Of a stretch of DNA of 64,000 nt, positions 5,380-55,035 are shown piece after piece. Both the position numbers and the translations under genes were made by a program. The notes beneath the pieces were generated by a model, which ran no database searches, was not told the DNA's origin, and worked only from the letters and a program-made list of their open reading frames with translations. Each line of letters opens with the position of its first letter. Positions within the stretch are counted from its first letter, which is position 1. The stretch is taken from positions 736,001 to 800,000 of the forward strand of contig CM000431.1 in NCBI GenBank assembly GCA_000165345.1, read 5' to 3'.

Positions 5380-5511
5380 AGGATTCGGCTAAACTTGATA
5401 GCAAGTAATAAATATTTCAAGTATGTATAATTTCAAGTAATAAATTATTCGCCATGCCTTTTACATGTTAAATCTCTAAATTTGTATTCAAATACAAATT
5501 TAACAGGCGTG

Positions 5512-8500
5512 ATGAGAAATATAGATTTTTTTGAAATTTTTAAAAGATTGGATATTAATTATACAAATAAACAAGTAAATTCATGTTCAAGTATTAATTT
5601 AAAAAAAGACAGTATTCAACAAGAAGTTAATTCAAAAGAAAATCAACCACCTGAAAGTGGTGGATATAAACATCGTGAAAATGATGGAATATATTTAGAC
5701 ATTAACTTCAACTCTAACTCTATTGCACTCCAGCCATGTATCGCAATTAAAGAGAAATCATTCAGATTACCAATATTTGAATTGACGTATGATTTTCAAA
5801 TGCCTAATACTACATACCAAGTTAAACAAAACAGCAGGCTTTATGAAGAAATTTACTCATTAGTATATGCAAATTATTCAAATATCATAATTAATGAGAT
5901 TACTCCTTCGAGAAAAATAAAAATTTCTGAAACAAAACCTATTTTTGAAATCTCTGAAAAAGAAGGGAATCAATATTCTATATTTTGGGATGATGAAGAT
6001 ATCAAATCCAACTCATCAATTTTACTTGGTGAGTTTACTGGATTGCTGTATAATGACGAAAAAAAATACTATAACAAGTATTCTTTCAAATTGCCCAATG
6101 TTTCAAATGAAGAGTTAAGTGTTATTTTGGATGCGTCTCATTACTGTAATGAATTTGCTTTTCTAAAACATTGTAGGCTCCCCTTTCCATTCGATGATCA
6201 AAGAATAAGACCAAACACTCAGTTACAGTGGTTATTTATTGATAAATGGCCACATCTTGTTGTATTAACTATTCCTGGAATCGAAATTAAACAAGGCGAT
6301 GAACTTGTTGTCGATTTTGGGAACAATTATCATATGTATTACGTAAATAGTTTGAAAACAATATTTAAAAACATCATCAAAATTAAAGCGGAGAATACGC
6401 AAATTTTCCAAATTTGCACTGTATGTAGACTTGAACTAGAGAAAAGCATTATTGAATGTAAAAAGTGTATAATTTGCCGTGAATACATACATGATAAGTG
6501 TGGTTATTATTATAAAAACAGTGGAAACTCGGTTTGTTGTACTACTTGTTTAAAAAAATCTTTTAATATTATCTTTGGCATTAATAAAAAATTTGATTAT
6601 CCCTTCAGCGGAACAAATAATTCGAGTAAGGATTCAATTATTAGTATACTAAAAATTTATGATGGGGATGCATGCGAAGAATGTTTATCATTGTTTCGTA
6701 AAAAAGACTTGGAATTAGAAAGATGTAAGTCTGCATTCTTTTGTAAACTACTCCATGAATTTTATCAGGTAGATAAACACCCTGATAATATTGACTCTTT
6801 TTATGCAGAATATAATTCCAAAAACGAGACAGAACCAAAGTCAAGCATTAATATGGACATTAAAGCCCTTGAAAATATTTATTATATTTTTGAAAGACTA
6901 GTGAAATACTTAAAGGATTTTTATGATGAAAACAGTGTTTGCGAAAGATTAAAATTTGAATCATATTTTTCCCAAGATAATTATGTTGGTTATTCAAACC
7001 GTCAATCAAAATGTTTATTTCCAGATTCGTTAATCTACGAAACATGGGGAAAGTCGAAATGGAAAGATTTTATTTTTTGGGATCAGGCAAAAAATTCTTG
7101 GGTCGGATTACTAAGACCAAATGGGATATTTTCAAGATTCGATTGCTGTAATAAATATCCAACTATAATTGAAAGTTTTTATGAAACAGAAAAGTGGGTA
7201 GAACAGAGAATAAGCGAAACTACAATTCCAAAGAATTTGATTTCTGCAATATTGAATAATTCTGATAAAGGTTCCAATTGTAATGAAAAAGACTATTCTA
7301 AAAGTCAAGAAGATATTGTTTCACATACTTATTACCACTCGCCGTATTTACCTACTGATCTAGCATCACACCCAGACTTCAAAATATTCAGCAATGAAAA
7401 TGGAAACAAGTATCAAGGTAATTTACCTCCAGTCAACGAAACTAATAATCTATTTTCAATGAATGATAATCAGTTATTGAATGGAAAACTCAAGAACGCA
7501 AATGCTACTCATAGTGTTGAATCAGAATTGTTCTCATTTTCAAATTCGCCTGAATTTTTATTAAATGATATTAGACCACGTGTTTCTACCACAGGTTATA
7601 TTCAATGCTGTTCGCCAGTCAACAGAAAACGTAGAATAAGGTCAACTCTCCCCTTAACTTCGAATGCTGCAAAATGCCCAACTGAATGGAGAGTAAGAGG
7701 GATCACGTGGCATGCAGAAAGAAAAGCATTTATTGTACCATATAGAAGAGATAAAGATGGTGGGCTTACTTCAACAACTTTTGGTGCAATGAAGTATGGA
7801 AGCCCTTTGACTGCATTTTTAAAAGCTTTAGAATTTAGGGAAAATTATTTAAAGGAGCAGGCGACAAAGTTACCAGAAGAAATAAAGCAGCCAAGTGTTA
7901 TTTGTGATCAAGCATTATTAATTAGAAATTTACCAAATATAATTTGGGATTCGAACAAACTTGTATGGAGAGCTCTTGCAGATGAGGAACTCCTATGCAA
8001 TAATAACTTAACACATAAATTAACTTTTTATACACAAGATATTGAAATAAACGCAATGCCTTATGGAGCAAGAATTGCATATGAAATAGCCGAAGTTTGC
8101 TATATTCGTAGAAAAGCATTACTTCTTAACTCAAAGGTAAATACTATAAAAAATTCATCTGTAAGCCGTATAAGAAATAAGAGTAATTCATTAGAGGGTC
8201 ATGGAGACGAGTACCAATTGATATTAGAGGATCAAAACCATTTATTATTACCTAAAAATTCACAAATGGATATTTCAAACTCGCAAAGCTCTTGTTTCAA
8301 ACAAATCAGGTTGAAAATTATTTTTCCAAATGGAGAGGAAGTTATTAGAAGTGACTTGATTGCATGGCATTTTAGGAGTAATTCATGGATAATTACCAAT
8401 ATGATTGATGGAAGTACATCTAATCAAACGAAAAATATTAGTTTCCTCAATTATTCAGATTCCAATATAAAACAGAAATCTCTTATTCAATCATTAATTT

Positions 8501-9144
8501 ACGCAATTGAATGTTGTACATCTATACCTCCAAAGTGTCAAGTATACGTTCATGCAGAGGAAGCTGAGTCAATAATTGATTCTGAAGATCTTGCGGAATT
8601 GTTGAAACCTTTCCCAACAGGGATATCGTGGTATTGCAAAAAAAGAAGGTTTTATACATCAAATGGGCTTGATAGTAATGGAAGAGGACAACACTTTAGT
8701 ATTGCATTATACGGTTCACTTATTTCTGCATTTAATGCCGCAATTGACTATAGAAATATTTTTTTGAAAAATAGGAGAAAGGCTATTTTGCCAAAAGTTG
8801 AATGGATTCTATGCTTTCCTGTTAATCAATGTTCAACTAATACAGGTTCAAATGAAAGAATAAGCGATTCAGATATTATTAATAATCGAGATATAGTAAA
8901 GGAATTGGATAGTTGCAACATTTATCATTTATCCGATAATTATATGGGGAGTTGTAACGATAGAAATATTGATCGAATAAATAGTCAAATATCATCATTA
9001 AATACATGTATTTCAGGAGATTCATATCATTCTGGAAGTGATTGGCTTCAACATCCAACAACAGTTTCATTGTTGGACGATCAGATAATTGAGCCACAAA
9101 ATGATTTGGATAACAGAATAATGAATATTGAATTAATAGAATAA
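5512..9144 (+). CDS. Multi-domain putative chromatin/transcription regulator carrying a SET-like region, a PHD finger and at least two AP2 DNA-binding domains (ApiAP2-type).
   Basis: The track start at 5482 is a TTG codon. The first in-frame ATG is 5512 (MRNIDFFEIF...). Domain motifs are listed as separate features below. The ORF is uninterrupted for 1210 codons. Confidence 0.7.
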   Translation: MRNIDFFEIFKRLDINYTNKQVNSCSSINLKKDSIQQEVNSKENQPPESGGYKHRENDGIYLDINFNSNSIALQPCIAIKEKSFRLPIFELTYDFQMPNTTYQVKQNSRLYEEIYSLVYANYSNIIINEITPSRKIKISETKPIFEISEKEGNQYSIFWDDEDIKSNSSILLGEFTGLLYNDEKKYYNKYSFKLPNVSNEELSVILDASHYCNEFAFLKHCRLPFPFDDQRIRPNTQLQWLFIDKWPHLVVLTIPGIEIKQGDELVVDFGNNYHMYYVNSLKTIFKNIIKIKAENTQIFQICTVCRLELEKSIIECKKCIICREYIHDKCGYYYKNSGNSVCCTTCLKKSFNIIFGINKKFDYPFSGTNNSSKDSIISILKIYDGDACEECLSLFRKKDLELERCKSAFFCKLLHEFYQVDKHPDNIDSFYAEYNSKNETEPKSSINMDIKALENIYYIFERLVKYLKDFYDENSVCERLKFESYFSQDNYVGYSNRQSKCLFPDSLIYETWGKSKWKDFIFWDQAKNSWVGLLRPNGIFSRFDCCNKYPTIIESFYETEKWVEQRISETTIPKNLISAILNNSDKGSNCNEKDYSKSQEDIVSHTYYHSPYLPTDLASHPDFKIFSNENGNKYQGNLPPVNETNNLFSMNDNQLLNGKLKNANATHSVESELFSFSNSPEFLLNDIRPRVSTTGYIQCCSPVNRKRRIRSTLPLTSNAAKCPTEWRVRGITWHAERKAFIVPYRRDKDGGLTSTTFGAMKYGSPLTAFLKALEFRENYLKEQATKLPEEIKQPSVICDQALLIRNLPNIIWDSNKLVWRALADEELLCNNNLTHKLTFYTQDIEINAMPYGARIAYEIAEVCYIRRKALLLNSKVNTIKNSSVSRIRNKSNSLEGHGDEYQLILEDQNHLLLPKNSQMDISNSQSSCFKQIRLKIIFPNGEEVIRSDLIAWHFRSNSWIITNMIDGSTSNQTKNISFLNYSDSNIKQKSLIQSLIYAIECCTSIPPKCQVYVHAEEAESIIDSEDLAELLKPFPTGISWYCKKRRFYTSNGLDSNGRGQHFSIALYGSLISAFNAAIDYRNIFLKNRRKAILPKVEWILCFPVNQCSTNTGSNERISDSDIINNRDIVKELDSCNIYHLSDNYMGSCNDRNIDRINSQISSLNTCISGDSYHSGSDWLQHPTTVSLLDDQIIEPQNDLDNRIMNIELIE
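5940..6345 (+). other. SET-like domain (weak call)
   Basis: ILLGEFTGLLYNDE resembles the SET-N motif GEFIxEYxGE. ASHYCNEF resembles the NHSCxPN motif. IKQGDELVVDFG resembles the GEELTxDYG motif. The spacing between NHSC and ELxxD is about 50 aa. No post-SET cysteine cluster was seen. Confidence 0.35.
6415..6549 (+). other. PHD-type zinc finger (C4HC3)
   Basis: CTVC-x13-CIIC-REYI-H-DK-C-x12-C-TT-C. The spacing fits the PHD pattern C-x2-C-x(9-21)-C-x2-C-x4-H-x2-C-x(12-46)-C-x2-C. Confidence 0.6.
7672..7853 (+). other. AP2 DNA-binding domain 1
   Basis: RVRGITWHAERKAFIVPYRRDKDGGLTSTTFGAMKYGSPLTAFLKALEFR matches the AP2 pattern G(V/I)xW...A......G......F...YG...A...A...R. Confidence 0.65.
8620..8766 (+). 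other. AP2 DNA-binding domain 2
   Basis: GISWYCKKRRFYTSNGLDSNGRGQHFSIALYGSLISAFNAAIDYR shows the same AP2 residue pattern. Two weaker AP2-like stretches lie further upstream in the protein: IFWDQAKNSWVGLLRPNGIFSRF... and IAWHFRSNSWIITNMIDGS... Confidence 0.6.
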
Positions 9145-9199: not shown

Positions 9200-12100
9200 A
9201 TGAACAGAAACTCGATAATATCTCAATGCAACGTTGATCCCACTGTTTTCTTCTATTATTCAGGTAATAACTTCCACAAAAAATTGGGATTATATTTTAT
9301 TGATGATTTTACCTACGAAAATATTAATAAAATTTTTGAACACACAAATGAGTCAAAACTAACTTTTACTCCAGCTATTGGTGAAATATCAGACCCAATT
9401 TTTTCCGGAGAAACATCTATTGAATATTCATCCGAATTTTTCCCAAGATTTTCCTGGAGCAAAAACGATACTTTTGGTGCATTTACAACTGGTATTTCTC
9501 GCGAAATAAAAATATTGTATTTGAACAAGGGGCAACTCCAAATTTCAGAAGAGATTCATACTCCTGATTACTTTTGTTCTTGTCTTGAACTAAATAATTA
9601 TGTAAATTTTCATTTATTGGCTTCTTCCAATATTAAATATTTCAATTCTCAAAATTTCGCTCAAGGAATTATTTCTATAATCGATTCCAACACTAAACAA
9701 AACATTGTAAATTATCATAAAGGTTCTAGCTTCGAAAGACTTAATAATATTTCCGGATATCCTAATAATGTTAAGTGGATAAACTCCAACTGCTTGGTTT
9801 CTGGCTGGAAGCTTTGTAATTATTCAAGCCAATTGCATTTTTACGACATACGAGCTAAAGATGCAATTTTTGCTACCAATATTATGACCAATTGTAATGA
9901 ACTCCTAGCAGTTAGCCAAACTGGAGGTAATTATTTACTTTCCAGTAACTTAAATAACATTATTTGTATATTTGATATAAGGTTTATGAAAAATGAACCA
10001 AGACAAAATATTATTCAAACATTAAACTGCATTTATTTTAATGATAATGAGATCAACGATATACAGTGGTTTCCAAATGGAGAACTCAATATTTCAATTT
10101 ATACTAATGATGGGATCTTTATTGCAGAGTTAAATAAAGAAATAAACTCACATATATCTTTTGAAGCATACAAGTCAGATAATCGTTTTGAAAATATCTA
10201 TTGGAATGAAAATTTAATCAAGCATTACAAGCCATTAAGTCTTAAAGAAGATTTCAGCGATACATTTTGTTGGGTTAATTATTTTGGAGGAAGTAACAAT
10301 AAACATTCATTAGTATACACAACTTCTGAGTCTGCATATCTTTTATCAAATTTAGAAATTAAAATTAATTCTTTTCCTACCTTTCGAATTTCTCCACTGG
10401 ATTCTCATTCAATAGATACGAAACATAAGCCTCAAAAAATTAATTACAGGGTTTCAAATTCTCCAAAATTGTTTGGTTACTCATGGATTCCATATAGGAT
10501 AATAAAATACTATAAAAATGATAAGAAAATTGAAGAGTACAACTGCATAGAGTTATTGAGAAGACTTGAGAACATAAATTCAACAGAAGCTAGAAATTTG
10601 GTCATTAATCAAAATGATCAGAAAAAGTTAATTGATATTGGAATTTTCCCATTAGCATTAAATAACTTAACTAATATTATAAAAATTATTAAATCTGCTT
10701 CTCATGCATTTAATTACTTATCAACTTTACCTAATCGAATTATTCATTGGAAAGATATTTTGAGGCAATTTAACAAGCAAGGCCTATTTAGTGGTGAAAA
10801 CGTGTCTGTTTTAGATAAATTAATGTTACCAGGAATCAGAGACTTAGTTTATATTTTTAAGTTGGAAGCAGGGAATAGTGATATATCTACCCAGCTGAGA
10901 TTTATTAATGTCAAGTATGAAGATTTAGAAAATAAGTCTTCTAAATGCTTGAATATGAGAGAAAATTTTCATCACATTGAAATATTTTGTTCTCCTTTTA
11001 GAGAGAAGTTAATAAATCTTTTTGGAGTATCCTCATTTATTATTGAAACGCCTATCTTTATAGACAATAATGACCCAATTCAATTAGAATCATTTTTAAT
11101 CACATTTTTTTGGAACTGCATTACACTTCAATACCAGAATTTTATTTCTCACGGTGATAAGCTATCAAATATTCTTGATAATTTTATTGATAATGAAAAT
11201 AAGCTACTCAAATCCTCTTTTTTAAAAAATATTAAGTTGTTTTTTAATTCTGCTGGGATTTTTATTTCGAATTTATATTCTTCAGAAGAACTAAATAAAA
11301 TTTCTTTAAGCAGAAAAGATATTCAGTTCTACTACTATTCAATTATTTCAACAAGCGAACATTTACTAGATGAAGATTATTACTTGCCTATTTGGAACAG
11401 CAACATTCATTTTGAATCTAGTCTTCAACTTTCAATAAGATTTATTGTTGCATTTTCCAAATTTATTAATATCCATGATCAAAACAAGCAATTTTCTTCA
11501 TATTTATTGGATGAACTATTAATTCCTTCCATGAGAATAAACTCTTATATTTATATTCCTGCTAATTTGTTACTTTTGATTGGAATTTATTATTTACCTT
11601 TGGAGGAAATTTGTAACTTGATAGAAATAATTATAAGAAAAATGGCTCAAAATGGTTTTTTAGATGGAATATCAATTTTAGGGTTTAATACATTTACTGA
11701 TGAAACATTTTTGTTAAGAAGTTTTCCTGATAACTACAACTCTGAACAATTTGAAACCTTTCTCGGGAATTTCAATTTGAACGAAAATCTTGATTCGATA
11801 TTTTTAGAGCCAGAAAATAATATAAATAAAAATTTTGGTTATAATTTGAGCTCTCAAGTATTTCTTAATTTAATTTTTCGCAAATATTTATCTCTTTCAT
11901 TTGGAGATATTCAAACAGTTGCATTAATTGGATCGTGTATTCCTAATCTCTCTGGTGGTCTCAAAAAAAATATGGAATTATTAAAGATTTGCATTGATGA
12001 ATACAAAGATTTATTGAAGAATAACTCTTTAATATATTATCTAATTTATAGCTCAAACATAATCGGCCTTTTAAAAAATGGATCTAAATCCGCAAAATTT

Positions 12101-12796
12101 ACTTATAATAATGTATCGGGCATACTTTATGAGCTTAATATCCTAAGATCGAGTTACTATAAAATGATTCATATTGACCAGGATCAATTAAAGCCACTAT
12201 TACCAACTGGGAATATATTATTTTGCTATTATTGCGAGCAGCCATTATGCCAAGCATATTTCGAGCAGAGTTGCTTTTTTGAAAAAAGCAATTCGAACAT
12301 GGATTGTAATTCAATAATTTCTCAATCATTCAATACAGACCTTTCTGAAGTTCAATTAGACAAAAAAGAAATAGTTTTTAAGAATATTTATAATAGAGAC
12401 TATCAGGTAGGATATTCGTTACGTTGGACAAGCAGTAATAAATCAAGTATAAATAGTTTAATTCAACCTGAAGCTATTCAAAGTTTGGAGTTATCATCTA
12501 TGATCTTAAACTGCCCTAATAAATATTGTAACAAACCTCTACCAAGATGCGTAATTTGTTTGACAGAAATGTCTATCAATGTGATTAGTAATTCAATCAA
12601 TGATGACGCTGCGCAAAAGGACTGTACTCAACAATGTAATTATAATAAATTGAGTAAATGGTATACTTGGTGTTTGCATTGCCACCATGGCGGATGTTTT
12701 AAACATATCAGTGAATGGTTTGAGTGTTTTGATGAATGCCCTGTACCGGAGTGCAATTGTTGGTGTAATTCAGTAGATCGTTGGCACAAATTATAA
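9200..12796 (+). CDS. WD40 beta-propeller, alpha-solenoid and C-terminal RING protein. The RING is of the SEA/GATOR2 type (WDR24/WDR59/MIOS-like). A HOPS/CORVET subunit such as Vps8, Vps11 or Vps18 is the alternative.
   Basis: The ATG at 9200 is confirmed. The N-terminal region carries WD-like strands (HFYDIRA, ICIFDIRF, IQWFPNGEL). The C-terminus reads CVIC...WCLHCHHGGCFKHISEWFECFDECPVPECNCWC. This resembles, as recalled from memory, the C-x2-C...C-x2-C-G-H-G-G-H...W...CP..C.C C-terminal fingers of WDR24/WDR59/MIOS. Total length is 1198 aa. Confidence 0.5.
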   Translation: MNRNSIISQCNVDPTVFFYYSGNNFHKKLGLYFIDDFTYENINKIFEHTNESKLTFTPAIGEISDPIFSGETSIEYSSEFFPRFSWSKNDTFGAFTTGISREIKILYLNKGQLQISEEIHTPDYFCSCLELNNYVNFHLLASSNIKYFNSQNFAQGIISIIDSNTKQNIVNYHKGSSFERLNNISGYPNNVKWINSNCLVSGWKLCNYSSQLHFYDIRAKDAIFATNIMTNCNELLAVSQTGGNYLLSSNLNNIICIFDIRFMKNEPRQNIIQTLNCIYFNDNEINDIQWFPNGELNISIYTNDGIFIAELNKEINSHISFEAYKSDNRFENIYWNENLIKHYKPLSLKEDFSDTFCWVNYFGGSNNKHSLVYTTSESAYLLSNLEIKINSFPTFRISPLDSHSIDTKHKPQKINYRVSNSPKLFGYSWIPYRIIKYYKNDKKIEEYNCIELLRRLENINSTEARNLVINQNDQKKLIDIGIFPLALNNLTNIIKIIKSASHAFNYLSTLPNRIIHWKDILRQFNKQGLFSGENVSVLDKLMLPGIRDLVYIFKLEAGNSDISTQLRFINVKYEDLENKSSKCLNMRENFHHIEIFCSPFREKLINLFGVSSFIIETPIFIDNNDPIQLESFLITFFWNCITLQYQNFISHGDKLSNILDNFIDNENKLLKSSFLKNIKLFFNSAGIFISNLYSSEELNKISLSRKDIQFYYYSIISTSEHLLDEDYYLPIWNSNIHFESSLQLSIRFIVAFSKFINIHDQNKQFSSYLLDELLIPSMRINSYIYIPANLLLLIGIYYLPLEEICNLIEIIIRKMAQNGFLDGISILGFNTFTDETFLLRSFPDNYNSEQFETFLGNFNLNENLDSIFLEPENNINKNFGYNLSSQVFLNLIFRKYLSLSFGDIQTVALIGSCIPNLSGGLKKNMELLKICIDEYKDLLKNNSLIYYLIYSSNIIGLLKNGSKSAKFTYNNVSGILYELNILRSSYYKMIHIDQDQLKPLLPTGNILFCYYCEQPLCQAYFEQSCFFEKSNSNMDCNSIISQSFNTDLSEVQLDKKEIVFKNIYNRDYQVGYSLRWTSSNKSSINSLIQPEAIQSLELSSMILNCPNKYCNKPLPRCVICLTEMSINVISNSINDDAAQKDCTQQCNYNKLSKWYTWCLHCHHGGCFKHISEWFECFDECPVPECNCWCNSVDRWHKL
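12548..12766 (+). other. C-terminal RING-like zinc finger of the 9200..12796 protein
   Basis: The Cys/His cluster is listed in the parent feature. Confidence 0.55.
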
Positions 12797-12867: not shown

Positions 12868-15800
12868 TCAATGATTAGTATCTGCTTCGTTTATTTTAAC
12901 ATTGACATTATCATCTTGCTCTACGTTGCCAAGCGATTCATTGCTTGACTGCTCCATCTCCATAATTGAGTCAGCAATCCTTGATTCATATCTCAATGAG
13001 ATTAACCATATTATTCCGATTACAATGCTAATTGCAAAACCTATAAACGTGGCAAAATTTAAAATAACGATAAGAGTGTCTTTGGTTCTACCGACCATCC
13101 CACAAAACGTAACGATCCCATTTGTAAAGTCAACTGAAACTTGTCCACAATTATGAGCTTCTGTCTTTATACTATTTAAAATCATTGCACTCCCAAACAT
13201 TTTCCTTATTCTATCGTTTAGAACCAAATTTAGTCTCTCGACCTCATTAGCTGCAAAGTTAGTTGGGTTAATTAAATAATCGTAACTAATACTGGCAATG
13301 TACTCTTGGAATTCAACGTATTTGCATGTATTATTATAGTATTTAATATAAAGGCTGTTATTTCCAAAATTGGGAATTTCCTTTATTCCTTCAATATCTA
13401 TCCAAGAAAATGGATAACAAAAAAAATTGTGATTATACAATTCCATTGATTTCTTTACCCATACTAGCGTATGTTTAAAGCTCGAAATTGGATAGTCCTT
13501 AAAATGTTTATTATCTTTATGATATTTTTCTATGGCTAGCTGATCAATGTCTGTGTCTGCTGAAATGATTAGATTCTCTTCTGAATTTGTATTATCCTCT
13601 GTAATAGAAGATGTTGGCTCAAATATATTTTCTAAGCTAGATAATTTTGAAGTAGGATTCTCCTCAGTTTTCTCTTGTTTTCCGTTAATAGTATCTGAAG
13701 TATCTACCAAGTATTTTATTTTAAATGGGTATATTATTGATTCAAGAACTTCCAAGCCAGGAACCTTAATTGGCAATGACTGAGAAATCATTAAAGTTGA
13801 AACATTAGAATTAGGACTGCTACATAGAGCAGTGTATGTAGTGTAGCCGAATATAGAACTTTTCATTAGCCAATTTTCTTCTTTGTAGCTCTGAGTTATT
13901 AAAACTAATACAGGCACGTCTTGTTCATCTGGTGTAGATTTCTCCACATCTGGAAAGTACATTAAAGAATATTTTATGTAGTCTGTTATATTCATGTAAT
14001 TAAAACATTGTTCTGCTATTGCTTGGCTGGTGGAAATAATATTGATATATTCTGGAACAATTTTTGACATATCATTGACAAAAGAGCCTGGTAGCAATTG
14101 AACTAATAAATAGGATAGACTGCTTTCTATTGGAGCATCGTCCAACAAACCAACTATTTCCTGATTACCGAACCTTTCAGCAAGTAAAATATCATTTGAG
14201 TTACTTTTTAGTAGTTCATTATTATAATTCAAAAACAAATTGGAAATAAAGTCATTTTTATTCATTGCTCTGCTTTTTGTACTCAAATCTCCCAAGTATA
14301 ATTCACTTTTTAAACTCTCGTTACTAAACAAGTGATTCTGATTCAACAAAAATCGAGGGCTTTTATTTGAATAGTTGAAAAATATGTCTTTAATATTTTC
14401 GCTATCTTTGGACTCATCACTCTGAAGTTTATTAAATAAATCTAAATATATATGATTTTTTATTCCATGATATTCTAAAACCCTTATCCTATCAGTTATA
14501 AAATCTTTTTCATTAAGATATCTTTTGTTATCACTTTTAATCTTAATATACGATGCAAGTGGATACATACATATACTCATAATCATTCCTAATTCGGGAC
14601 TTACAGTTGAAATCCAATTCATCCCTATTGGACTAAACAAATCACTAACTATCCAACCACAATAGTCTTTCCCTACTGTTCCTGAAACCGTTAGAGTATA
14701 TGAAACAAATGAAACAAATGTAGACAATCCCATAAATATGAATGCGACAGCAACCAATGCTGACCTACTTTGGAAAAATCCAATGTGACTTCTTCCAGAT
14801 AAGAATAGTTTTATGTGAAGAATTGAAAAAATAATTGAAATTACTCCAATTATTGTAGATGAAACGCATAGCACTGTAATTATTACAAACACAATGTTGC
14901 TTGCAGTCCTAGATACATTTAAAAATAATAAAATGTATGAAATAAATTTTTTGAAAATTTCAAAGTATTCATTAACACTAAATGACATTGATGAAGTATC
15001 CACTGATTTTATAATGTCAGTTATTTTATTTAAAACCGGAATCATAGAGTTAAATAAAGTTTCATTCACTGGCATAAATGAATTTACAGCATTTAATACA
15101 GAGTTCTTAAGTAATTCTTTGGCCGGAATATACCAATCAATTCCATTAGGATTAATTACTGATGAATTGGTAAAAACATTTGCTAATTCATTTAGTCTTA
15201 TACTTAGAGCAGTTGGAAACCCTGCACTTCTAATGTAATTAATTGTGTCTTTAAAAAATTCAATTAATGTTTCAACTGAACCCAATTCCTGAAATAAACC
15301 GTAAAGTGGTAGTGATCCAATGAATGGAACTGTTGTATTTGTTTTCAAGAATGATTTTGCAATACTGAACGAACCTGAAGTTGTGTTAATATTTATATTG
15401 CCATTTGAAAATGCATCCGCTCCAATTGCAAACCAACAAACTGATGTTAAAAAAGAATCAGAAAAGGCAAAAAAGTTTACAATAATCACAATAGAAAGAG
15501 TAATATAAATAACACATAGTCCACATAATAGGGTACTCAATATATATATACTCAGTTTTACTTTCCATAATCCGTTTGATGTTTCTTCAAATGAAACAAC
15601 TCTGTCGTTCATTACTCTGCACAAAACAAACCCAAGAGATACGGCAATAAAGGTAAAGATTGAAATACCAAAAATTATACAACTGGCAATTTCTCTCCAA
15701 ATCAATGCATCTAAATAGCTGGATATCAGCGGTTTAAGATTTATGTGAGTTTTATTGGAATCTGCAATGATTGCATTTTCAAAAATTATTCCTGCTAAGA

Positions 15801-16080
15801 CACTATAATCTGAATGCCACGATTTGAACGATTCCCACATTTCCTTTTTATAAGCGAGATCACTTTCTTGAAGTTTGTCGTACCTCCCACAGTTTTCAGA
15901 GACAAATTCTTCCAGAGTAGATACCCTGGAATAATTAATAACTTGCTGTGCCTTTTCAAGGCTAGATAAAATATATGGAGTGCTAACTGACCATGGTATA
16001 TCTGTTAAGGAGGCCTCAACTTTACCAAAAAGGTATATACATATACAAAAGATGGATGTTATGCAATATTTAACAGACAT
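12868..16080 (-). CDS. Large multi-pass membrane protein with an N-terminal signal peptide. Family not assigned.
   Basis: ATG at 16080-16078. The N-terminus MSVKYCITSIFCICIYLFGKVEAS looks like a signal peptide. At least 8 hydrophobic segments are present, for example IASCIIFGISIFTFIAVSLGFVLC, VIITVLCVSSTIIGVISIIFSIL and IGFAISIVIGIIWLISL. A hydrophilic region of ~450 aa sits between the TM clusters. Confidence 0.6.
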   Translation of the reverse strand: MSVKYCITSIFCICIYLFGKVEASLTDIPWSVSTPYILSSLEKAQQVINYSRVSTLEEFVSENCGRYDKLQESDLAYKKEMWESFKSWHSDYSVLAGIIFENAIIADSNKTHINLKPLISSYLDALIWREIASCIIFGISIFTFIAVSLGFVLCRVMNDRVVSFEETSNGLWKVKLSIYILSTLLCGLCVIYITLSIVIIVNFFAFSDSFLTSVCWFAIGADAFSNGNININTTSGSFSIAKSFLKTNTTVPFIGSLPLYGLFQELGSVETLIEFFKDTINYIRSAGFPTALSIRLNELANVFTNSSVINPNGIDWYIPAKELLKNSVLNAVNSFMPVNETLFNSMIPVLNKITDIIKSVDTSSMSFSVNEYFEIFKKFISYILLFLNVSRTASNIVFVIITVLCVSSTIIGVISIIFSILHIKLFLSGRSHIGFFQSRSALVAVAFIFMGLSTFVSFVSYTLTVSGTVGKDYCGWIVSDLFSPIGMNWISTVSPELGMIMSICMYPLASYIKIKSDNKRYLNEKDFITDRIRVLEYHGIKNHIYLDLFNKLQSDESKDSENIKDIFFNYSNKSPRFLLNQNHLFSNESLKSELYLGDLSTKSRAMNKNDFISNLFLNYNNELLKSNSNDILLAERFGNQEIVGLLDDAPIESSLSYLLVQLLPGSFVNDMSKIVPEYINIISTSQAIAEQCFNYMNITDYIKYSLMYFPDVEKSTPDEQDVPVLVLITQSYKEENWLMKSSIFGYTTYTALCSSPNSNVSTLMISQSLPIKVPGLEVLESIIYPFKIKYLVDTSDTINGKQEKTEENPTSKLSSLENIFEPTSSITEDNTNSEENLIISADTDIDQLAIEKYHKDNKHFKDYPISSFKHTLVWVKKSMELYNHNFFCYPFSWIDIEGIKEIPNFGNNSLYIKYYNNTCKYVEFQEYIASISYDYLINPTNFAANEVERLNLVLNDRIRKMFGSAMILNSIKTEAHNCGQVSVDFTNGIVTFCGMVGRTKDTLIVILNFATFIGFAISIVIGIIWLISLRYESRIADSIMEMEQSSNESLGNVEQDDNVNVKINEADTNH

Positions 16081-16198: not shown

Positions 16199-17830
16199 TT
16201 AAATATTTTTTTCTTGTAAGATTTTACAAATTCTAAGTAATTCCCTACATGAACTAACTACATTGCACTTAACTTGCTCGATATCTTTAATATCCTTTGC
16301 ACTGTTGTACAAATTCTTAGTGATTTCTAATAAGCTTTCATTAAGTTTAGGCGCATTTGAATTTAATTCAGGCTCTGAATTTAAGTTACACCTTATTTGA
16401 GAATAATGTATGTCTCTATGTTCAAAAAAATGGCTTCTTTGATTGGATAATAGGACCTTTTTGTAGTTTTTATCATCAAAAGCTGAGCCACTTAATAATT
16501 TAGGCGAATTTAAGCACTCGTTTTCAGCAGAAACAGTGTAGCATAGTGATTTTGCGTTCGATAATATTTCAAGTGGACTAATAGATAAGTTTGATTGATT
16601 AACTATTAATTTCAACGTATGGTTAAAGTCAGAGTTTACTATTGCACTTCTTCTTGCAAGTAGTATTGAAATAGCAATAAAATTTACTATTGGTAAAGAT
16701 GATTCAACTGCTTCACAGACCTCTTTATTTATATTTTTTCTCCCTTTTGCAGAACCATCCATTAAAATTTCGCTATTAGAGAATTTCCCATTTTGAAGGG
16801 CATCACAAAAGATGCCTTCCCAAATTATAATTGAATTATTCAAATCGGAAAATTCTCTAGAAAATAAAAGTCTAATCCATCTTAAAAAAATAAGTTGGGG
16901 TTCAATTTCATGCTCTCTATATAGATGAATAAACAGCTCATAATCTACCTTTTCTAAAATGCCATAAATATTTATACATCTATGTACTATCGGAGGTTTA
17001 TTCGAATCATCGTTTTTCATTGAATTATTATCATTTGAATTACACTCATTGTATGTGGATTTAAACATATATTTTAAACCAAAAACATTCATAACAGAAT
17101 TAAACATAATATAAGTATCTGCTTCTATTGAATCGCTCCTAAAAATGTGTTCTAAACTGAAATTATCTCCATTGTATTCATTCTTTGACTCTAGACCATT
17201 AGAATAAACTCTATTATCAACAATTTTCTGACTGTGATTTATCAAAAATAAAATTGCAGCAATTTCATTCATTCCCTGCTTGTATCCCAGATCAGGGTTC
17301 TCGCGTGTCCATGTGAACAATATTCTTTGCAAAAGTTGTCTCGTATTTGAGTCAGAAAAAAGTTGTCGTTCAGAATAGGTTCTTGTGACGTCTTTCCAAA
17401 TTTCATCTAATAATTCACCATTTTTGTGTTGTTCATTCCACGGGTTATTAGCAATCTGAGATAGAGGATGAAACTTTAAAGGGTCCATTGAAGTAACTTT
17501 ACTAATATCTAATTTATTTTTGTTAAAAGAGCGAGAATAATTGCTTCTCTCCATTTCTAGTAATTCGTGAATTTTTTTATAGCAATCATGAATTGAAAGC
17601 GAAAAAAAATCAACAGGGATAATTCTGAGTAGAATCATCCACTTAAGACGTGGGATATCCAATATATTTTCATTTTTTCCTTGTACATATTTTACATTAC
17701 AAACATTTTCGGTATATTTAATAAAGTTTTGTTTTGGATTACCTTTCAAATATTCAAAAAAATCTATAAAGCTTGAATCTTCGATTTTTGAATAGTACTC
17801 GTCATTCTCAAAAACTTCAAAATCTGTCAT
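16199..17830 (-). CDS. TBC-domain Rab GTPase-activating protein
   Basis: QLLQRILFTWTRENPDLGYKQGMNEIAAILFLI contains the TBC Gln-finger motif YxQGMxEI. The ATG is confirmed. Confidence 0.75.
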   Translation of the reverse strand: MTDFEVFENDEYYSKIEDSSFIDFFEYLKGNPKQNFIKYTENVCNVKYVQGKNENILDIPRLKWMILLRIIPVDFFSLSIHDCYKKIHELLEMERSNYSRSFNKNKLDISKVTSMDPLKFHPLSQIANNPWNEQHKNGELLDEIWKDVTRTYSERQLFSDSNTRQLLQRILFTWTRENPDLGYKQGMNEIAAILFLINHSQKIVDNRVYSNGLESKNEYNGDNFSLEHIFRSDSIEADTYIMFNSVMNVFGLKYMFKSTYNECNSNDNNSMKNDDSNKPPIVHRCINIYGILEKVDYELFIHLYREHEIEPQLIFLRWIRLLFSREFSDLNNSIIIWEGIFCDALQNGKFSNSEILMDGSAKGRKNINKEVCEAVESSLPIVNFIAISILLARRSAIVNSDFNHTLKLIVNQSNLSISPLEILSNAKSLCYTVSAENECLNSPKLLSGSAFDDKNYKKVLLSNQRSHFFEHRDIHYSQIRCNLNSEPELNSNAPKLNESLLEITKNLYNSAKDIKDIEQVKCNVVSSCRELLRICKILQEKNI

Positions 17831-17862: not shown

Positions 17863-20800
17863 TTACTTAGTCAAATTCCCCGCAAAATCTTTCGCATTAT
17901 AATTGGAGAAATTTATTTTTTTTTCATGGATATTTGATAGTAGGAAATCAAGGCGTTTTTCAAAAAAACTTATATAAAAACTGCTGTTTTCAAATATATC
18001 TTCTCTATTATTAATCTCCCTATATTTGGAAATTATAATCAATTTTCTAATTGATATCACAAAAGTTAAAATGCTTACTTCATCAATTAAAACGCTCCCA
18101 AAAAGTTCGATACTTATTAGTTGGGTCGGACACTCCTTTATACAATCATAAACTCTTTTAAACAGATTAATTTGACTCTTTATTTGCGTCCCCCATTGTT
18201 CAAAATGGAGCTCAATTTTCGATATTTCATCTGAATTTAGTGTTTTTTGGCTTATAGCTTTAAAATATTTGAAAATCTGACAAGTTGCTACCTGGGAAAT
18301 ATTCAAATATTCGTTACAAATATTATCAATCTCCCTTGGGAAAAATACGGAGTTATTTTGAGTTTCCATACTCCGTAAACTTTCAGATATTACGTCCAAG
18401 ATTATTATCGAAAATAAACATGAATTCTGGTCATTAAGCAAGACAATTTGTTTAATTTGATTTTCGTATTCGTTATAGCAATTTAAGCCACTGCCGTGAG
18501 AATCTTCATTTTGATGTAAGAAGTTACTACAGAAATATTTGATAATATGGATAAACGAATTAAAAGTAAGAATTGCTTTATTTTCGATGGACGCAGCTTC
18601 GTCAGTTATTAAATAAATTAAACAAACCATTAAGTTGTACCAATAATTGTGGTTAAAACACAACAAAAAAAGAATTGTTCCTTCATGAATATCATTAATG
18701 CCAATTTTTGTACAGAATAAGTTTCTAATTCTATCATTTTTTTCAACTTTTATTTCCAAAAATAATTCAGTTTCCAGAGATTCAAAAATAGTTCTTATTA
18801 TTTTGCAGATCAAACATTTTTTTTCAAGTGTTAACTGTGTTCCATTACATATGTTGTTACAAACCATCTTTAAGATTTTATCAAATACTATCTTTTCAAG
18901 TTCGTATACTATAAAATACGGAATACTATCATGTCTTGCTATATTTTTGTAAAACCTAATAAAAAAAATAGAAAATTCCAAAATCGCAATTTGATCTTCG
19001 AAAAAGAATCTTCCAATTTTGCTGTTTATTAAATCTATATCAGTTTTTTCCTCAGAGTTTTCATCTTCACCTTCGCTAGTCTTATATTTAGAAAGCTCTT
19101 GGTGATAAATCAGGTCAAAAACAGACTCTATTATTGAATCAGATTGTTCGTTTTCTAAAAAAACAAAAGACAACTTATAATTATAACCAATAAAAGATAA
19201 GCACCCTGTCAATACTTTAACTAAGTCTGTTAATATTGATAATTTTCTAATTTTCGTCTTCTCATTTATGTATTGCTCTTTATTGTTTGCTGAAATTAAA
19301 TGTTTTATGGACTTTAAATTGTTATCAATTAAGTTAAAAAGTTTCTGAACGAAGGTATCCTTCTTTTCTGATATAGATAGAATGTCAATAATTGACGAGT
19401 AGAATTCAAGTAAAATTTTCGGATGAATGATTTTATCAAAGGCTGGAGATAAACAAATTAATGAGTTTAATTCTCCAGAATCAATATATTTAAAAACATT
19501 ATTAACAATTATTTTTATCAAGTATATATGCTCTGATAGATTTTCATTAAAATAGTTCTTTGGATGACTTATTGATAAATATAGATTATTGTTTAGATTA
19601 GAGAAATCTATATAAAGTGTTTTAGATTTTGAACTGATGTTTTTCCAATAATAAATTAGATTTTCCAAACAATTCGATTTTTCATTTATAGGAAATTCAA
19701 GTTCAAATAACAAACTCATTAGTTCTAACGCCGTTATTCTTAATAGTGGATGCTTAAATGTTGTAAAGCTATCTCTAATAAAAACCAACAAATTTTCGTA
19801 AATTGAATTGTCTATAGATTTGAAAGAATTCCAACAAGATTGATTTTTAAATTTTTTCATCAGAACAATTCCCAAATTTAGAATTCCATGAATTAAGTTA
19901 TATTTATTCTCTGAATTGTTAATCGAAAATTTGATAGATTGAAAAATTAAATTTAGTAAAGAATTGGCTTTAGAAGCTTGATTATTCGAGTTATTGATAA
20001 AAATTTCAAGCAGGATTCCATCTAAATTTGCATTAGAAATTTCATTTAGTGGATGTAAACTCAAATTAGGGATATTTAATGTTAAAAAAATAATCTCTCC
20101 CAATAACTTTGAAGAATACATTCTAACGAAATATGAACTTGAATAAATTGATTTAATAATGCAAATAGCAAGCTCGTATGAGCAATCTGCCCATGAAATA
20201 GATATTTCAGTAAGTAGTAACAGAACCATTCCTTGAAATTGCGTATGAGTAGAATTTAGCAAAATATCAATAATGCATGGCTCAAAAATACCTGAAATTC
20301 TTTTAATCGATTTTAGTGAAAAACGGGTAGAAGTATTGATTTCAGATATCAAAGAATTAACACAATTATAATCAAATTGTTTATTTAATACGATTGATAA
20401 AACATCTTTGAGCACTTTATTAAATAAAATGGGTAAGTCGTCTGACCCCGGTGTGGTTTTAAAATCATTATTAAGAATTTCGCATCGATTGTTCGTCTTG
20501 CTAATATATTCAATATTACTTTCTATTCCGTTTGCTTTGAAACTAAACCTTTTCAAAAGTGCAGACATTAAATTCAATGAAGAATTGCATAAAGCAAACC
20601 CGTTTTCGTCTTTAACTTTCAAATCGTATATTTTAATATTATTGAATGCTGAAAATAAAGAACCACATAGTAAACTCAGATCAAAAATTTCGCAAAGAGT
20701 ATTTGTTCCAGAACTGCTTTTTGATTTAGAAATTAATTTTGCGAGGATATGATTAGAGTGAATACTGCATCTATAACGCTGGAATAAAATATAATCAGAA

Positions 20801-25128: not shown

Positions 25129-25773
25129 AAAAAGATAATTTAGCACTGAAAAAAAATACTTAAACTGAAAGCTAATTGTATTAATATTAATAGATTTTTA
25201 GAGCAAATAGATTAGACTAGGAATTTTGGATTACCTGCTATTAAAGAACGATATTCATCAACCAATCCAATAAGATGGAATTTCAGACTGGGGCGACAAG
25301 GAAGTCGTCATGAATCAACGCAAATTGTCAATCATCATACACTCCAATACTTACTGAAAATGCGAAGACCAAGGCTAATTGAAATTCAATACCTTAGTAG
25401 AATAATAATTTGAGCTCAGTTATTAGTTGTTTCTTCAAAAATACAATATTTCAGAAACACGGAAACCAAATACATCATTGCATTTAAAAATCGCATTTAA
25501 GTGATAAACTCCATCCGTAATAGAGGTAAAATCGATCCCTAAGCCATGGTAAACTTACGAATAAATTATAATCTTCACATTTCATTTAGGACACGGTAGT
25601 ATATAAAATTAATCTAGCTTAGCAATAATTTGATAGTTTGATAAGAGCCTCAGGACAATACATTATGCCGTCTAATTAAACTCGGCGCCCATGTCATTTT
25701 CGCCTTGAAAGAGATTCGAATGATTTGAAGCCAATTCCTTTTTTCGCAAACAACTTTTTATTAGACTGCTATT

Positions 25774-49938: not shown

Positions 49939-50205
49939 ATTAATATTATTTAAAAAAAAAATACGATTGTAAATAAGATTCCGCTGTAACAATTTAATAA
50001 TTCAAATACAGTTAGCTCGCGATATTCTGTTGGAAAGTGAATATAGTGGAATCCTCTGCATACTATTAGCAATTTTTAAATGTGAGCACGAGCGGGTAAT
50101 ACATGCATCTGGAAAAAAAAAGTTCATTTTGGATTAGAAAAATCTAAAAATTAATTATAACGATTTAAAAAAAAAACAATTTCTAATAAATCCAGATGTT
50201 ATTAA

Positions 50206-54378: not shown

Positions 54379-55035
54379 TTAGTTTGAAGAACAACCATTT
54401 GAAAAGCAATTTCCTCCTCCTCTTCTATCTGATCTAAACAATTGAAACCCTCCAGTTTTACCATTATTTTCTGTGCTCATACTGTTAGAGTCCAGCTTTT
54501 TGGTGTTTGGAAGCTTTCTTGCAATCTCCTCAAATAGTTCTTGGACATTATATCCAGTTTTTGCTGATGTTTCGAAGCTCAGTATTCCTTTTTCCTTAGC
54601 GTAGTTACGTGCTGTTTCAGAGTCCACAGTTCGACTACTTTCTAAGTCATACTTATTCCCAACTAAAGCAACAACAATATCATTGTTATTTATATTCTGT
54701 AGTTCTGATATCCATGACTTAGCCCCTTGAAACGTTTCTACATTTGTAATGTCGTAAACCACAATTGCTGCCGCAGCTCCTCTATAATACATGGGTGCAA
54801 GACTTCTGTATCTTTCTTGCCCTGCTGTATCCCAAATTTCGAACTTAACAGTATAATCATCATCAACATTTACCGATTGAGTCATAAAGGCAGCACCGAT
54901 TGTTGGTTCCTGATACTCATGGAATTCATCCTTTGAGAACCTAACTACTAAACATGATTTTCCAACTGAAGCATCCCCCAACAAGACCAATTTCAGATGC
55001 AATGTTTTTGGAGTTTTTATTGCTGTCTGAGACAT
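54379..55035 (-). CDS. RAB5: Rab5-family small GTPase
   Basis: G1 GDASVGKS, the RabF motif [40 protein letters not shown], the NKxD-like GNKYDL and ETSAK are all present. The C-terminus [11 protein letters not shown] carries cysteines. ATG confirmed. Confidence 0.8.

What the first reader, a model, noticed from the sequence alone, without database searches (positions are those of the whole stretch)
9200..12796. WD40 and RING protein of the SEA/GATOR2 type, in a lineage often reported to lack TOR
The architecture is an N-terminal beta-propeller, then a long alpha-solenoid, then a C-terminal Cys/His cluster CVIC...WCLHCHHGGCFKHISEWFECFDECPVPECNCWC. This matches the distinctive RING of GATOR2/SEACAT subunits (WDR24, WDR59, MIOS), which carry a ...C-G-H-G-G-H...W...CP.GCGC C-terminal pattern as recalled from memory. 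HOPS/CORVET subunits (Vps8/11/18) share the overall plan but not the HGG-containing finger. If the host organism is an apicomplexan without TORC1, a retained GATOR2-like subunit would imply a TOR-independent function for this module.
Basis: partly seen in the sequence, partly recalled or inferred. Interest (0 to 1): 0.6.

Follow-up and report, generated by a model that had tools for sequence, protein, structure and literature searches.

The report
Cryptosporidium orthologue of GATOR2 subunit MIOS/Sea4
This gene is the Cryptosporidium parvum copy of MIOS/Sea4, the scaffold subunit of the GATOR2/SEACAT nutrient-signalling coat complex. Public databases already label its orthologues this way, so it is mildly interesting only because the parasite is reported to lack the TOR kinase that the complex normally controls.

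Summary
Window 9200..12796 (+) is one intact 1198-aa ORF, identical to C. parvum Iowa II EAK89033.1.

**Identity**
- The C-terminal Cys/His cluster matches only Pfam PF17034 (the MIOS zinc ribbon).
- In the PDB it matches only human MIOS (E 5e-16) and yeast Sea4 (4e-10). WDR24 scores E 8.4, and no HOPS/CORVET subunit appears.
- An AlphaFold model of the last 200 aa finds MIOS/Sea4 chains first. Other GATOR2 chains follow, then RBX1.
- Pfam's MIOS propeller and solenoid models miss the first 1000 aa. Profile-profile alignment nevertheless aligns them colinearly with canonical MIOS (E 6e-18 without the zinc domain; reversed control E 0.29).

**Conservation**
- dN/dS is 0.18-0.23.
- Full-length orthologues exist in every Cryptosporidium species sampled.
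- The nearest other relatives are gregarines, Cardiosporidium and Vitrella.

It is not new: the C. hominis and C. felis orthologues are already named "mio"/"MIOS". The literature reports no TOR-complex subunits in C. parvum, so a TOR-independent role is a reasonable inference. I could not check for partner subunits, GATOR1, Rag or TOR, because only this window was accessible. TORC1-independent GATOR2 functions are already known in animals.

The parts
9200..12796 (+). Complete intron-less CDS (1198 aa plus stop) of the C. parvum MIOS/Sea4 orthologue
   Evidence: ORF listing. Exact match to EAK89033.1/QOY42652.1 of C. parvum. The same gene boundaries are called in C. hominis and the chipmunk genotype. 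dN/dS is 0.18-0.23.
9227..10405 (+). N-terminal WD40 beta-propeller (about aa 10-402), equivalent to Pfam MIOS_WD40
   Evidence: hhalign blocks Q10-402 to T11-368 of a canonical MIOS master whose residues 40-359 are PF21720. Strands at aa 16-373 in the low-confidence model. Weak WD40-type hits at aa 197-309.
10463..10537 (+). Highly conserved linker segment (aa 422-446, ...FGYSWIPYRIIKYYK...) between propeller and solenoid; possibly the blade-donating 'domain invasion motif' that binds Seh1 (inferred only)
   Evidence: Invariant residues G426 Y427 S428 W429 P431 R433 Y437 Y438 across 9 Cryptosporidium species. The position matches the DIM described for Sea4 between propeller and solenoid (PMC9646525). 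hhalign confidence here is low.
10610..12163 (+). Alpha-solenoid (about aa 471-988), equivalent to Pfam MIOS_a-sol plus its C-terminal continuation
   Evidence: hhalign blocks Q471-988 to T398-728; the master's residues 399-626 are PF21719. Helices at aa 429-987 in the model. Lowest dN/dS of the three regions in the C. parvum/C. hominis comparison only (0.106); in the comparisons with the chipmunk genotype the zinc domain is lowest (0.13 against 0.15).
12191..12277 (+). First CxxC knuckle of the zinc domain (aa 998-1026; FCYYCEQPL with invariant C1009 and C1012)
   Evidence: Maps to the start of PF17034 in canonical MIOS (T729-757). Invariant in all Cryptosporidium species. A CxxC appears in the family consensus.
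12278..12487 (+). Cryptosporidium-specific, poorly conserved insert (aa 1027-1096) inside the zinc domain
   Evidence: Unaligned to canonical MIOS in hhalign. pLDDT below 50 in the C-terminal model. Variable among species.
12491..12784 (+). MIOS-type zinc ribbon/RING (aa 1098-1195): CPNKYC, CVIC, WCLHCHHGGCFKH, CPVPECNCWC
   Evidence: PF17034 E 1.9e-14. MIOS 3e-14 to 5e-16 and Sea4 4e-9 to 4e-10 in the PDB. All Cys/His ligand columns conserved against diverse MIOS, with one H-to-C swap. AlphaFold pLDDT 68-96, and Foldseek's top hits are MIOS/Sea4 chains.

Best explanation
The ORF encodes the vertically inherited Cryptosporidium orthologue of MIOS (animals) / Sea4 (yeast). This is the beta-propeller, alpha-solenoid and RING-like zinc-domain protein that forms the central scaffold of the coatomer-related GATOR2/SEACAT complex.

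**Shown here**
- Orthology-level similarity over the whole length.
- Conservation of every zinc-ligand column.
- Purifying selection on all three domains.
- Presence throughout the genus and in related myzozoans.

**Inferred from the solved human and yeast complexes**
- The protein probably pairs with a Seh1-type propeller through the conserved linker.
- Its C-terminal zinc domain probably heterodimerises with the RING domains of Sea2/WDR24-like and Sea3/WDR59-like partners, building a cage on an endomembrane.

**Inferred from the literature**
C. parvum is reported to lack all TOR-complex subunits. The retained, constrained gene therefore most likely serves the TORC1-independent side of GATOR2 biology (endolysosomal or autophagic membrane function, or ubiquitin-related scaffolding) and not Rag-TORC1 signalling.
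For: - **Domain matches.** Pfam returns only PF17034, E 1.9e-14. The PDB returns only MIOS (3e-14; profile 5e-16) and Sea4 (4e-9; profile 4e-10). WDR24 is at E 8.4 and no Vps chain appears.
- **Whole-length homology.** Profile-profile alignment of 14 Cryptosporidium sequences against 46 canonical MIOS is colinear over 10-1195 to 11-863, E 2.4e-40. With the zinc domain removed it gives E 6.2e-18 (99% probability). The reversed-template control gives E 0.29. The reference set carries PF21720, PF21719 and PF17034.
- **Structure.** The C-terminal AlphaFold model has pLDDT 68-96 over aa 1098-1197. It finds 22 MIOS/Sea4 chains at E 2e-6 to 7e-4, other GATOR2 chains at E >= 0.02 and RBX1 at E >= 0.14.
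- **Ligands.** The zinc-ligand columns are conserved.
- **Selection.** dN/dS is 0.23 (C. parvum against C. hominis) and 0.18 (against the chipmunk genotype), and is below 0.45 in each domain.
- **Distribution.** Full-length orthologues occur in 12+ Cryptosporidium species, including the gastric clade. The next-best relatives are gregarines, Cardiosporidium and Vitrella, sharing an HGGC signature.
- **Existing names.** Orthologues are already named 'WD repeat-containing protein mio' (C. hominis) and 'GATOR complex protein MIOS' (C. felis).
- **Literature.** No TOR-complex subunit was detected in C. parvum (PMC3236823). Apicomplexans lack TORC1 and TORC2 (PMC12467227). GATOR2, through WDR24 and MIOS, has a TORC1-, GATOR1- and Rag-independent lysosomal role in flies and human cells (PMC11545208). 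Sea4 architecture and RING heterodimerisation are described in PMC9646525.
Against: - Pfam's MIOS_WD40 and MIOS_a-sol models do not hit the protein on their own.
- The full-length AlphaFold model failed (pLDDT 29), so the N-terminal fold rests on profile alignment.
- No WDR24, WDR59 or HOPS profiles were available to compete against MIOS for the N-terminal 1000 aa. The MIOS-versus-paralogue call therefore rests mainly on the C-terminal domain.
- Partner subunits (Seh1, Sec13, Sea2-like and Sea3-like), GATOR1, Rag and TOR could not be searched in the C. parvum genome with these tools. None lies in the 64-kb window.
- Complex formation and TOR-independence are both unproven.
- The absence of TOR rests on comparative-genomics papers, not on a test here.
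Confidence: 0.85

Rival explanations
1. It is a HOPS/CORVET-type tethering subunit (Vps8/11/18/39/41 class), which shares the propeller-solenoid-RING plan. The GATOR2 resemblance would be superficial.
For: Only the shared protocoatomer architecture (PMC9646525; PMC8534245).
Against: No Vps chain or Vps/RING-H2 Pfam family appears at E <= 1-10 in sequence or profile searches. Foldseek lists no Vps chain in the top 50, and RBX1-type RING-H2 only at E >= 0.14, against 2e-6 for MIOS. The N-terminal 1000 aa aligns colinearly to MIOS at E 6e-18.
Confidence: 0.01
2. It is the WDR24/Sea2 or WDR59/Sea3 paralogue, not MIOS/Sea4.
For: The three paralogues share their architecture, and the last ~40 aa (C-x2-C-x-HGG-H/C ... 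CP-x3-C-x-C-x-C) are related. Some canonical MIOS also weakly hit PF17120 zf-RING_16.
Against: The family profile scores 5e-16 against MIOS and 8.4 against WDR24. Pfam gives PF17034 only, with no zf-RING_16 and no RWD domain. Foldseek ranks all MIOS/Sea4 chains ahead of the other GATOR2 chains by more than four orders of magnitude.
Confidence: 0.03
3. The protein is MIOS but works in a canonical, highly divergent Rag-GATOR1-TOR pathway that comparative genomics has missed in Cryptosporidium. On this reading it has no TOR-independent function.
For: Cryptosporidium proteins are very divergent. Here the MIOS propeller and solenoid escape Pfam detection and needed profile-profile methods, so other pathway members could be missed in the same way. 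Some apicomplexans retain TOR alone or with LST8 (PMC12467227).
Against: Independent surveys report no TOR, Raptor, Lst8, Rictor or Sin1 in C. parvum (PMC3236823). They also report loss of RAG, GATOR1 and TORC1 in intracellular parasites such as P. falciparum (PMC5745459). TOR is a large, well-conserved kinase that is hard to miss. This was not testable here.
Confidence: 0.15
4. It is a decaying relic of a lost pathway with no current function.
For: Its presumed pathway (TORC1) is reported lost. The N-terminal domains are strongly diverged from canonical MIOS (16-18% identity).
Against: The ORF is intact at full length in every species sampled, from C. parvum to C. muris, C. andersoni and C. 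serpentis. dN/dS is 0.18-0.23, with the solenoid and zinc domains at 0.11-0.27. About 37 consecutive C-terminal residues are invariant across species that are only 45% identical overall.
Confidence: 0.02

Closest known systems
Human MIOS (GATOR2 scaffold; PDB 7UHY chain A, 9LVJ chain A)
   Same: The domain order is the same and colinear over the whole length (hhalign E 2.4e-40). The C-terminal zinc domain is about 30-37% identical, with all ligand columns conserved. It is the best PDB hit by both sequence and fold.
   Different: The protein is about 325 aa longer. It has insertions in the propeller-solenoid linker and the solenoid, and a ~70-aa insert inside the zinc domain. HGGH is replaced by HGGC, and CPxC by CPNKYC. 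N-terminal identity is only about 16-18%, below Pfam detection. The host is reported to lack TORC1, and the animal sensors (Sestrin, CASTOR) are not expected there (my own knowledge).
Yeast Sea4 (SEACAT core; PDB 8ADL chain G)
   Same: Same family and architecture: propeller, DIM, alpha-solenoid and C-terminal RING (PMC9646525). Profile E 4e-10; Foldseek E 6e-5 to 9e-5.
   Different: It is more distant than human MIOS. Sea4's roles (cage of four Sea4-Seh1 dimers, RING pairing with Sea2 and Sea3, contact with Npr3) are demonstrated only in yeast. The partners were not verified in Cryptosporidium.
WDR24/Sea2 and WDR59/Sea3 (GATOR2 paralogues)
   Same: Same protocoatomer plan and a related terminal C-x2-C-x-HGG...CP-x3-C-x-C-x-C motif. 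They are second-tier Foldseek hits (E 0.02-0.4).
   Different: There is no significant sequence match (WDR24 E 8.4), no zf-RING_16 hit and no RWD domain.
HOPS/CORVET RING subunits (Vps11, Vps18, Vps8) and RBX1-type RING-H2
   Same: A general propeller-solenoid-RING plan, and a cross-brace zinc fold that is weakly similar to RBX1 (E 0.14-0.6).
   Different: No sequence, profile or top-50 fold match to any Vps subunit.
MIOS-like proteins of other Myzozoa (Vitrella brassicaformis CEL97425.1, Cardiosporidium cionae KAF8820529.1, gregarines Lankesteria and Ancora)
   Same: They are the highest-scoring non-Cryptosporidium hits and share the lineage signature CHHGGC...FDECPVP[ED]C. This indicates vertical inheritance.
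   Different: Only the C-terminal ~100 aa is detectably similar at the HMMER level. Vitrella retains both TOR complexes (PMC12467227), whereas Cryptosporidium reportedly does not.

Membership tests
MIOS/Sea4 (GATOR2/SEACAT scaffold subunit) | C-terminal MIOS-type zinc ribbon/RING (Pfam PF17034) with CxxC...CPxC...CxxC...WCxxCxHGG[H]xxH...CPVxxCxCxC | tested here: met
   PF17034 E 1.9e-14, 54 bits against a cutoff of 27. All ligand columns are conserved, with one H-to-C swap and a C-x4-C variant of the CPxC knuckle.
MIOS/Sea4 (GATOR2/SEACAT scaffold subunit) | Best match among solved structures is MIOS/Sea4, not the paralogues WDR24/WDR59 | tested here: met
   Sequence and profile: MIOS 5e-16, Sea4 4e-10, WDR24 8.4. 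Fold: 22 MIOS/Sea4 chains at E <= 7e-4 before any other chain.
MIOS/Sea4 (GATOR2/SEACAT scaffold subunit) | N-terminal MIOS-type WD40 beta-propeller (PF21720) | tested here: met
   Not detected by single-sequence Pfam. The profile-profile alignment maps PF21720 (40-359 of the master) to aa 59-392, within an N-terminal-only alignment of E 6.2e-18. The reversed control gives E 0.29. No paralogue profiles were available as competitors.
MIOS/Sea4 (GATOR2/SEACAT scaffold subunit) | Central MIOS alpha-solenoid (PF21719) | tested here: met
   PF21719 (399-626 of the master) maps to aa 472-798, in the same colinear hhalign hit. Helical content at aa 429-987 in the low-confidence model.
MIOS/Sea4 (GATOR2/SEACAT scaffold subunit) | Assembles with Seh1/Sec13 and with the RING domains of WDR24/Sea2 and WDR59/Sea3 | not testable with these tools
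   Only the 64-kb window of the genome was accessible, and it holds no such gene.
MIOS/Sea4 (GATOR2/SEACAT scaffold subunit) | Acts upstream of GATOR1-Rag-TORC1 | not testable with these tools
   The literature reports no TOR-complex subunits in C. parvum (PMC3236823). This functional feature is probably not met, which bears on function and not on homology.
WDR24/Sea2 and WDR59/Sea3 | C-terminal zf-RING_16-type RING (PF17120); an RWD domain in WDR59/Sea3 | tested here: not met
   No PF17120 or RWD hit at E <= 1. WDR24 is at E 8.4 in the profile search.
HOPS/CORVET RING subunits (Vps8/11/18) | Classical RING-H2 and Vps-specific solenoid families; best structural match to Vps chains | tested here: not met
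   No Vps or RING-H2 family or chain. None among the top 50 Foldseek hits.

The most novel reading that the evidence does not exclude
Cryptosporidium, and possibly gregarines and Cardiosporidium, keep a selectively constrained GATOR2/SEACAT-like scaffold in a genome that has lost TOR, Raptor, Rag and GATOR1. The module would then perform an ancestral TOR-independent job, such as a membrane coat or ubiquitin-ligase scaffold of the reduced endolysosomal system. Cryptosporidium would be a natural 'TOR-null' background in which to define that function.
Probability: 0.5. Interest if true: 0.55.

Novelty: already known. Interest (0 to 1): 0.3.

Why it matters
GATOR2 is studied almost only as an amino-acid-responsive activator of TORC1. 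How it acts, and what its RING domains do, are still debated. Work in flies and human cells already shows a second function that is independent of GATOR1, Rag and TORC1 (PMC11545208). An organism that has discarded TOR but keeps MIOS under purifying selection would isolate that second function genetically. For Cryptosporidium biology, it points to a conserved endomembrane or nutrient-related complex that nobody appears to have studied: no paper in the searched library links Cryptosporidium to GATOR2 components. As a sequence finding it is ordinary. It is a correctly recognised, divergent orthologue that automated pipelines already name MIOS.

Tried and rejected
- **Full-length AlphaFold.** Run with the 9-sequence Cryptosporidium alignment, it gave pLDDT 29. 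The model is unusable except for a rough secondary-structure pattern, so no fold search was run on it.
- **Word-indexed homology searches.** Searches with the full protein or its family alignment returned only Cryptosporidium proteins. The search with the C-terminal alignment returned only short fragments of 218 aa or less. These could deepen the alignment for the C-terminal model only.
- **First hhalign run.** It used a chimeric gene model (P0023, with an eIF4E-like N-terminus) as template master. I repeated it with a canonical MIOS master.
- **Partner and pathway genes.** Looking for Seh1, Sec13, WDR24, WDR59, Nprl2/3, DEPDC5, Rag, TOR and Raptor was possible only inside the window. None is there. 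The Ras-family GTPase at 54379..55035 hits Gtr1_RagA only generically (1e-4, against 9.5e-60 for Ras).
- **Literature.**
  - The SEA-complex paper with a phylogenetic distribution (PMC3108837) is not held.
  - Table 1 of PMC5745459 lists C. parvum, but its presence/absence symbols are not held.
  - The 2026 TOR/AMPK survey has no supplements held.
  - A search for a guessed gene ID, 'cgd3_2980', found nothing. That ID is my inference from the C. hominis tag CHM_3g2980 and is not verified.
  - Searches combining Cryptosporidium, Plasmodium or Toxoplasma with GATOR2, MIOS or Sea4 found nothing relevant.
- **DIM assignment.** The hhalign confidence in the propeller-solenoid linker is too low to assign a Seh1-binding DIM. 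I list that segment only as a conserved candidate.


Full report
**Observation.** Window 9200..12796 (+) is a single ATG-to-stop ORF of 1198 aa. The region has about 26-31% G+C and is packed with long intron-less ORFs. The translation is identical to C. parvum Iowa II EAK89033.1 ('conserved COOH terminal-specific cysteine rich domain') and to QOY42652.1. The window is therefore Cryptosporidium parvum. The C. hominis locus tag CHM_3g2980 suggests chromosome 3.

**C-terminal domain.**
- Against Pfam at E <= 1, the only real hit is PF17034 zinc_ribbon_16, the MIOS C-terminal domain: E 1.9e-14, aa 1104-1190. No RING-H2, zf-RING_16, RWD or Vps family appears.
- Against all PDB chains, the single sequence finds only human MIOS (7UHY_A and 9LVJ_A, 3e-14) and yeast Sea4 (8ADL_G, 4e-9).
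- A profile of nine Cryptosporidium orthologues sharpens this to 5e-16 for MIOS and 4e-10 for Sea4. WDR24 appears only at E 8.4, and no HOPS/CORVET chain appears at E <= 10.
- An alignment with diverse MIOS proteins shows every Cys/His ligand column conserved. There are two lineage-specific changes: HGGH becomes HGGC, and CPxC becomes CPNKYC.
- An AlphaFold model of aa 998-1198 was built with 80 sequences. It is confident over aa 1098-1197 (block pLDDT 68-96) and poor in the aa 1027-1096 insert.
- Foldseek against the PDB returns 22 hits at E <= 1e-3. All are MIOS or Sea4 copies in GATOR2/SEAC entries, at 28-37% identity. Other chains of the same complexes follow at E 0.02-0.4, and RBX1-type RING-H2 at E 0.14-0.6. 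No Vps subunit is in the top 50.

**N-terminal 1000 residues.**
- Single-sequence Pfam does not see MIOS_WD40 or MIOS_a-sol. It gives only a marginal generic beta-propeller hit.
- An exhaustive HMMER search of 1.84 billion representatives finds only four full-length relatives, all Cryptosporidium. Every other hit (645 at E <= 1e-3) matches only aa ~1098-1193.
- I therefore ran hhalign between a 14-sequence Cryptosporidium alignment and 46 canonical MIOS proteins of 780-1100 aa. All seven canonical MIOS-like hits I scanned from that search (three of them inside the 46-protein reference set, including the master P0029) carry PF21720, PF21719 and PF17034.
- The full-length comparison is colinear, 10-1195 to 11-863, E 2.4e-40.
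- With the zinc domain deleted from both sides it is still colinear, 9-941 to 10-709, E 6.2e-18, 99% probability. A reversed-template control gives E 0.29.
- Mapping the Pfam boundaries gives the propeller at about aa 59-392, the solenoid at aa 472-798 and continuing to about aa 988, and the zinc domain at aa 1009-1190 with a ~70-aa insert.
- The failed full-length AlphaFold model (pLDDT 29) shows strands only at aa 16-373 and helices at aa 429-987, which agrees.
- Caveat: I had no WDR24, WDR59 or Vps profiles to compete for the N-terminal part. Discrimination among paralogues rests on the C-terminal domain.

**Is the gene functional?**
- Full-length orthologues (45-96% identity) exist in C. 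hominis, C. meleagridis, C. tyzzeri, the chipmunk genotype, C. ubiquitum, C. canis, C. felis, C. ryanae and the gastric species C. muris, C. andersoni and C. serpentis.
- Flanking genes and gene boundaries are the same in C. hominis and the chipmunk genotype.
- Nei-Gojobori dN/dS is 0.23 (C. parvum against C. hominis) and 0.18 (against the chipmunk genotype).
- All three domains are constrained, with dN/dS 0.11-0.42.
- The last ~37 residues are invariant across species that are only 45% identical overall.

**Phyletic context.** The best non-Cryptosporidium hits are the gregarines Lankesteria and Ancora, the apicomplexan Cardiosporidium cionae, and a fragment that clusters with Vitrella brassicaformis. 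All share the CHHGGC...FDECPVP[ED]C signature. Among the 180 proteins fetched up to that point, that signature occurs nowhere else. This is the pattern expected for vertical descent within Myzozoa. I saw no Plasmodium or Toxoplasma protein among the 20 hits whose names I could look up, which says nothing about their absence.

**Mechanism.**
- In the solved yeast SEAC, Sea2, Sea3 and Sea4 share the order propeller, DIM, solenoid, RING. Four Sea4-Seh1 dimers form the core cage. Sea4's RING heterodimerises with the RINGs of Sea2 and Sea3. Removing any RING dissociates the complex (PMC9646525).
- By homology, the Cryptosporidium protein most likely plays the same scaffold role. The invariant zinc domain would be the partner interface. 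The invariant linker segment at aa 422-446 is a candidate Seh1-binding blade, but this is inference only, because alignment confidence there is low.
- van Dam et al. detected no TOR-complex subunit in C. parvum (PMC3236823).
- A 2025 survey finds TORC1 and TORC2 uniformly absent from apicomplexans, with some species retaining TOR alone or TOR with LST8 (PMC12467227).
- Tatebe and Shiozaki report loss of RAG, GATOR1 and TORC1 in P. falciparum (PMC5745459).
- If this holds for Cryptosporidium, a gene under purifying selection must act independently of TOR. That is plausible and not unprecedented. WDR24 and MIOS maintain lysosomal-autophagic function independently of GATOR1, Rag and TORC1 in Drosophila and human cells (PMC11545208; PMC4864241).

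**What I could not do.** The window contains no other SEA/GATOR, Rag or TOR gene. It encodes, among others, a TBC RabGAP, eIF2B, kinases, CRM1, COG3, a kinesin, an MFS transporter, Ssl1, AOX, RFC, a Rab-type GTPase and a GCN5-like acetyltransferase. No tool gave access to the rest of the genome. The presence of partners and the absence of TOR therefore remain literature-based or untested.

**Novelty and verdict.**
- The identification is correct but already public. NCBI and UniProt name the C. hominis orthologue 'WD repeat-containing protein mio' and the C. felis orthologue 'GATOR complex protein MIOS isoform X1'. Several others are named 'GATOR2 complex protein MIO zinc-ribbon like domain-containing protein'.
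- The searched literature contains no discussion of GATOR2 in Cryptosporidium or other apicomplexans. The SEA/GATOR review notes only 'some representation in protists' (PMC8534245).
- The finding is a well-read, ordinary orthologue with a modestly interesting evolutionary corollary. I score interest at 0.3.

Noticed in passing
window 12491-12784 (aa 1098-1195); proteins P0018-P0021, P0181: The zinc domain carries a lineage signature, CHHGGC...FDECPVP[ED]C, with HGGC in place of the usual HGGH. Among the 180 MIOS-like proteins fetched up to that point, it is confined to Cryptosporidium, the gregarines Lankesteria and Ancora, Cardiosporidium, and a fragment that clusters with Vitrella. It could serve as a myzozoan/apicomplexan MIOS marker.
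   Followed up: partly
window 12278-12487 and 12512-12529 (aa 1027-1096; CPNKYC at aa 1105-1110): Cryptosporidium has a ~70-aa poorly conserved insert inside PF17034. It also has a C-x4-C knuckle (CPNKYC) where other MIOS proteins have CPxC.
   Followed up: partly
window 5482-9144 (+): A 1220-aa ORF ends 55 bp upstream of the MIOS gene. It has no Pfam family at E <= 0.001. The precomputed annotation of its C. hominis and chipmunk-genotype orthologues lists only a 'faint' AP2 hit, and by eye it has PHD-like Cys clusters. It may be an ApiAP2-type factor. It is syntenic in all three species examined.
   Followed up: partly
window 12868-16080 (-) and 17863-25146 (-): These are a 1070-aa ORF with several long hydrophobic stretches (a likely multi-pass membrane protein) and a 2427-aa ORF. 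Neither has any Pfam family.
   Followed up: partly
window 54379-55035 (-): A Ras/Rab-family small GTPase (PF00071, 9.5e-60). Its weak Gtr1_RagA hit (1e-4) is generic, so it is not a Rag GTPase.
   Followed up: yes
window 51918-54275 (+): A strong purine skew on the + strand (AT skew 0.30 and GC skew 0.23 at 52-54 kb) coincides with a 785-aa Glu/Lys-rich, probably coiled-coil ORF without a Pfam family. Only two short imperfect tandem repeats are present.
   Followed up: partly
window 48931-49992 (-) and 16199-17830 (-): Alternative oxidase (PF01786, 1.5e-88) and a TBC-domain RabGAP (1.8e-20). Both are ordinary Cryptosporidium genes, noted for context.
   Followed up: no
protein P0023: One 'MIOS' representative in the public collection looks like a chimeric gene model with an eIF4E-like N-terminus. 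It distorted my first profile comparison until I replaced it as template master.
   Followed up: yes
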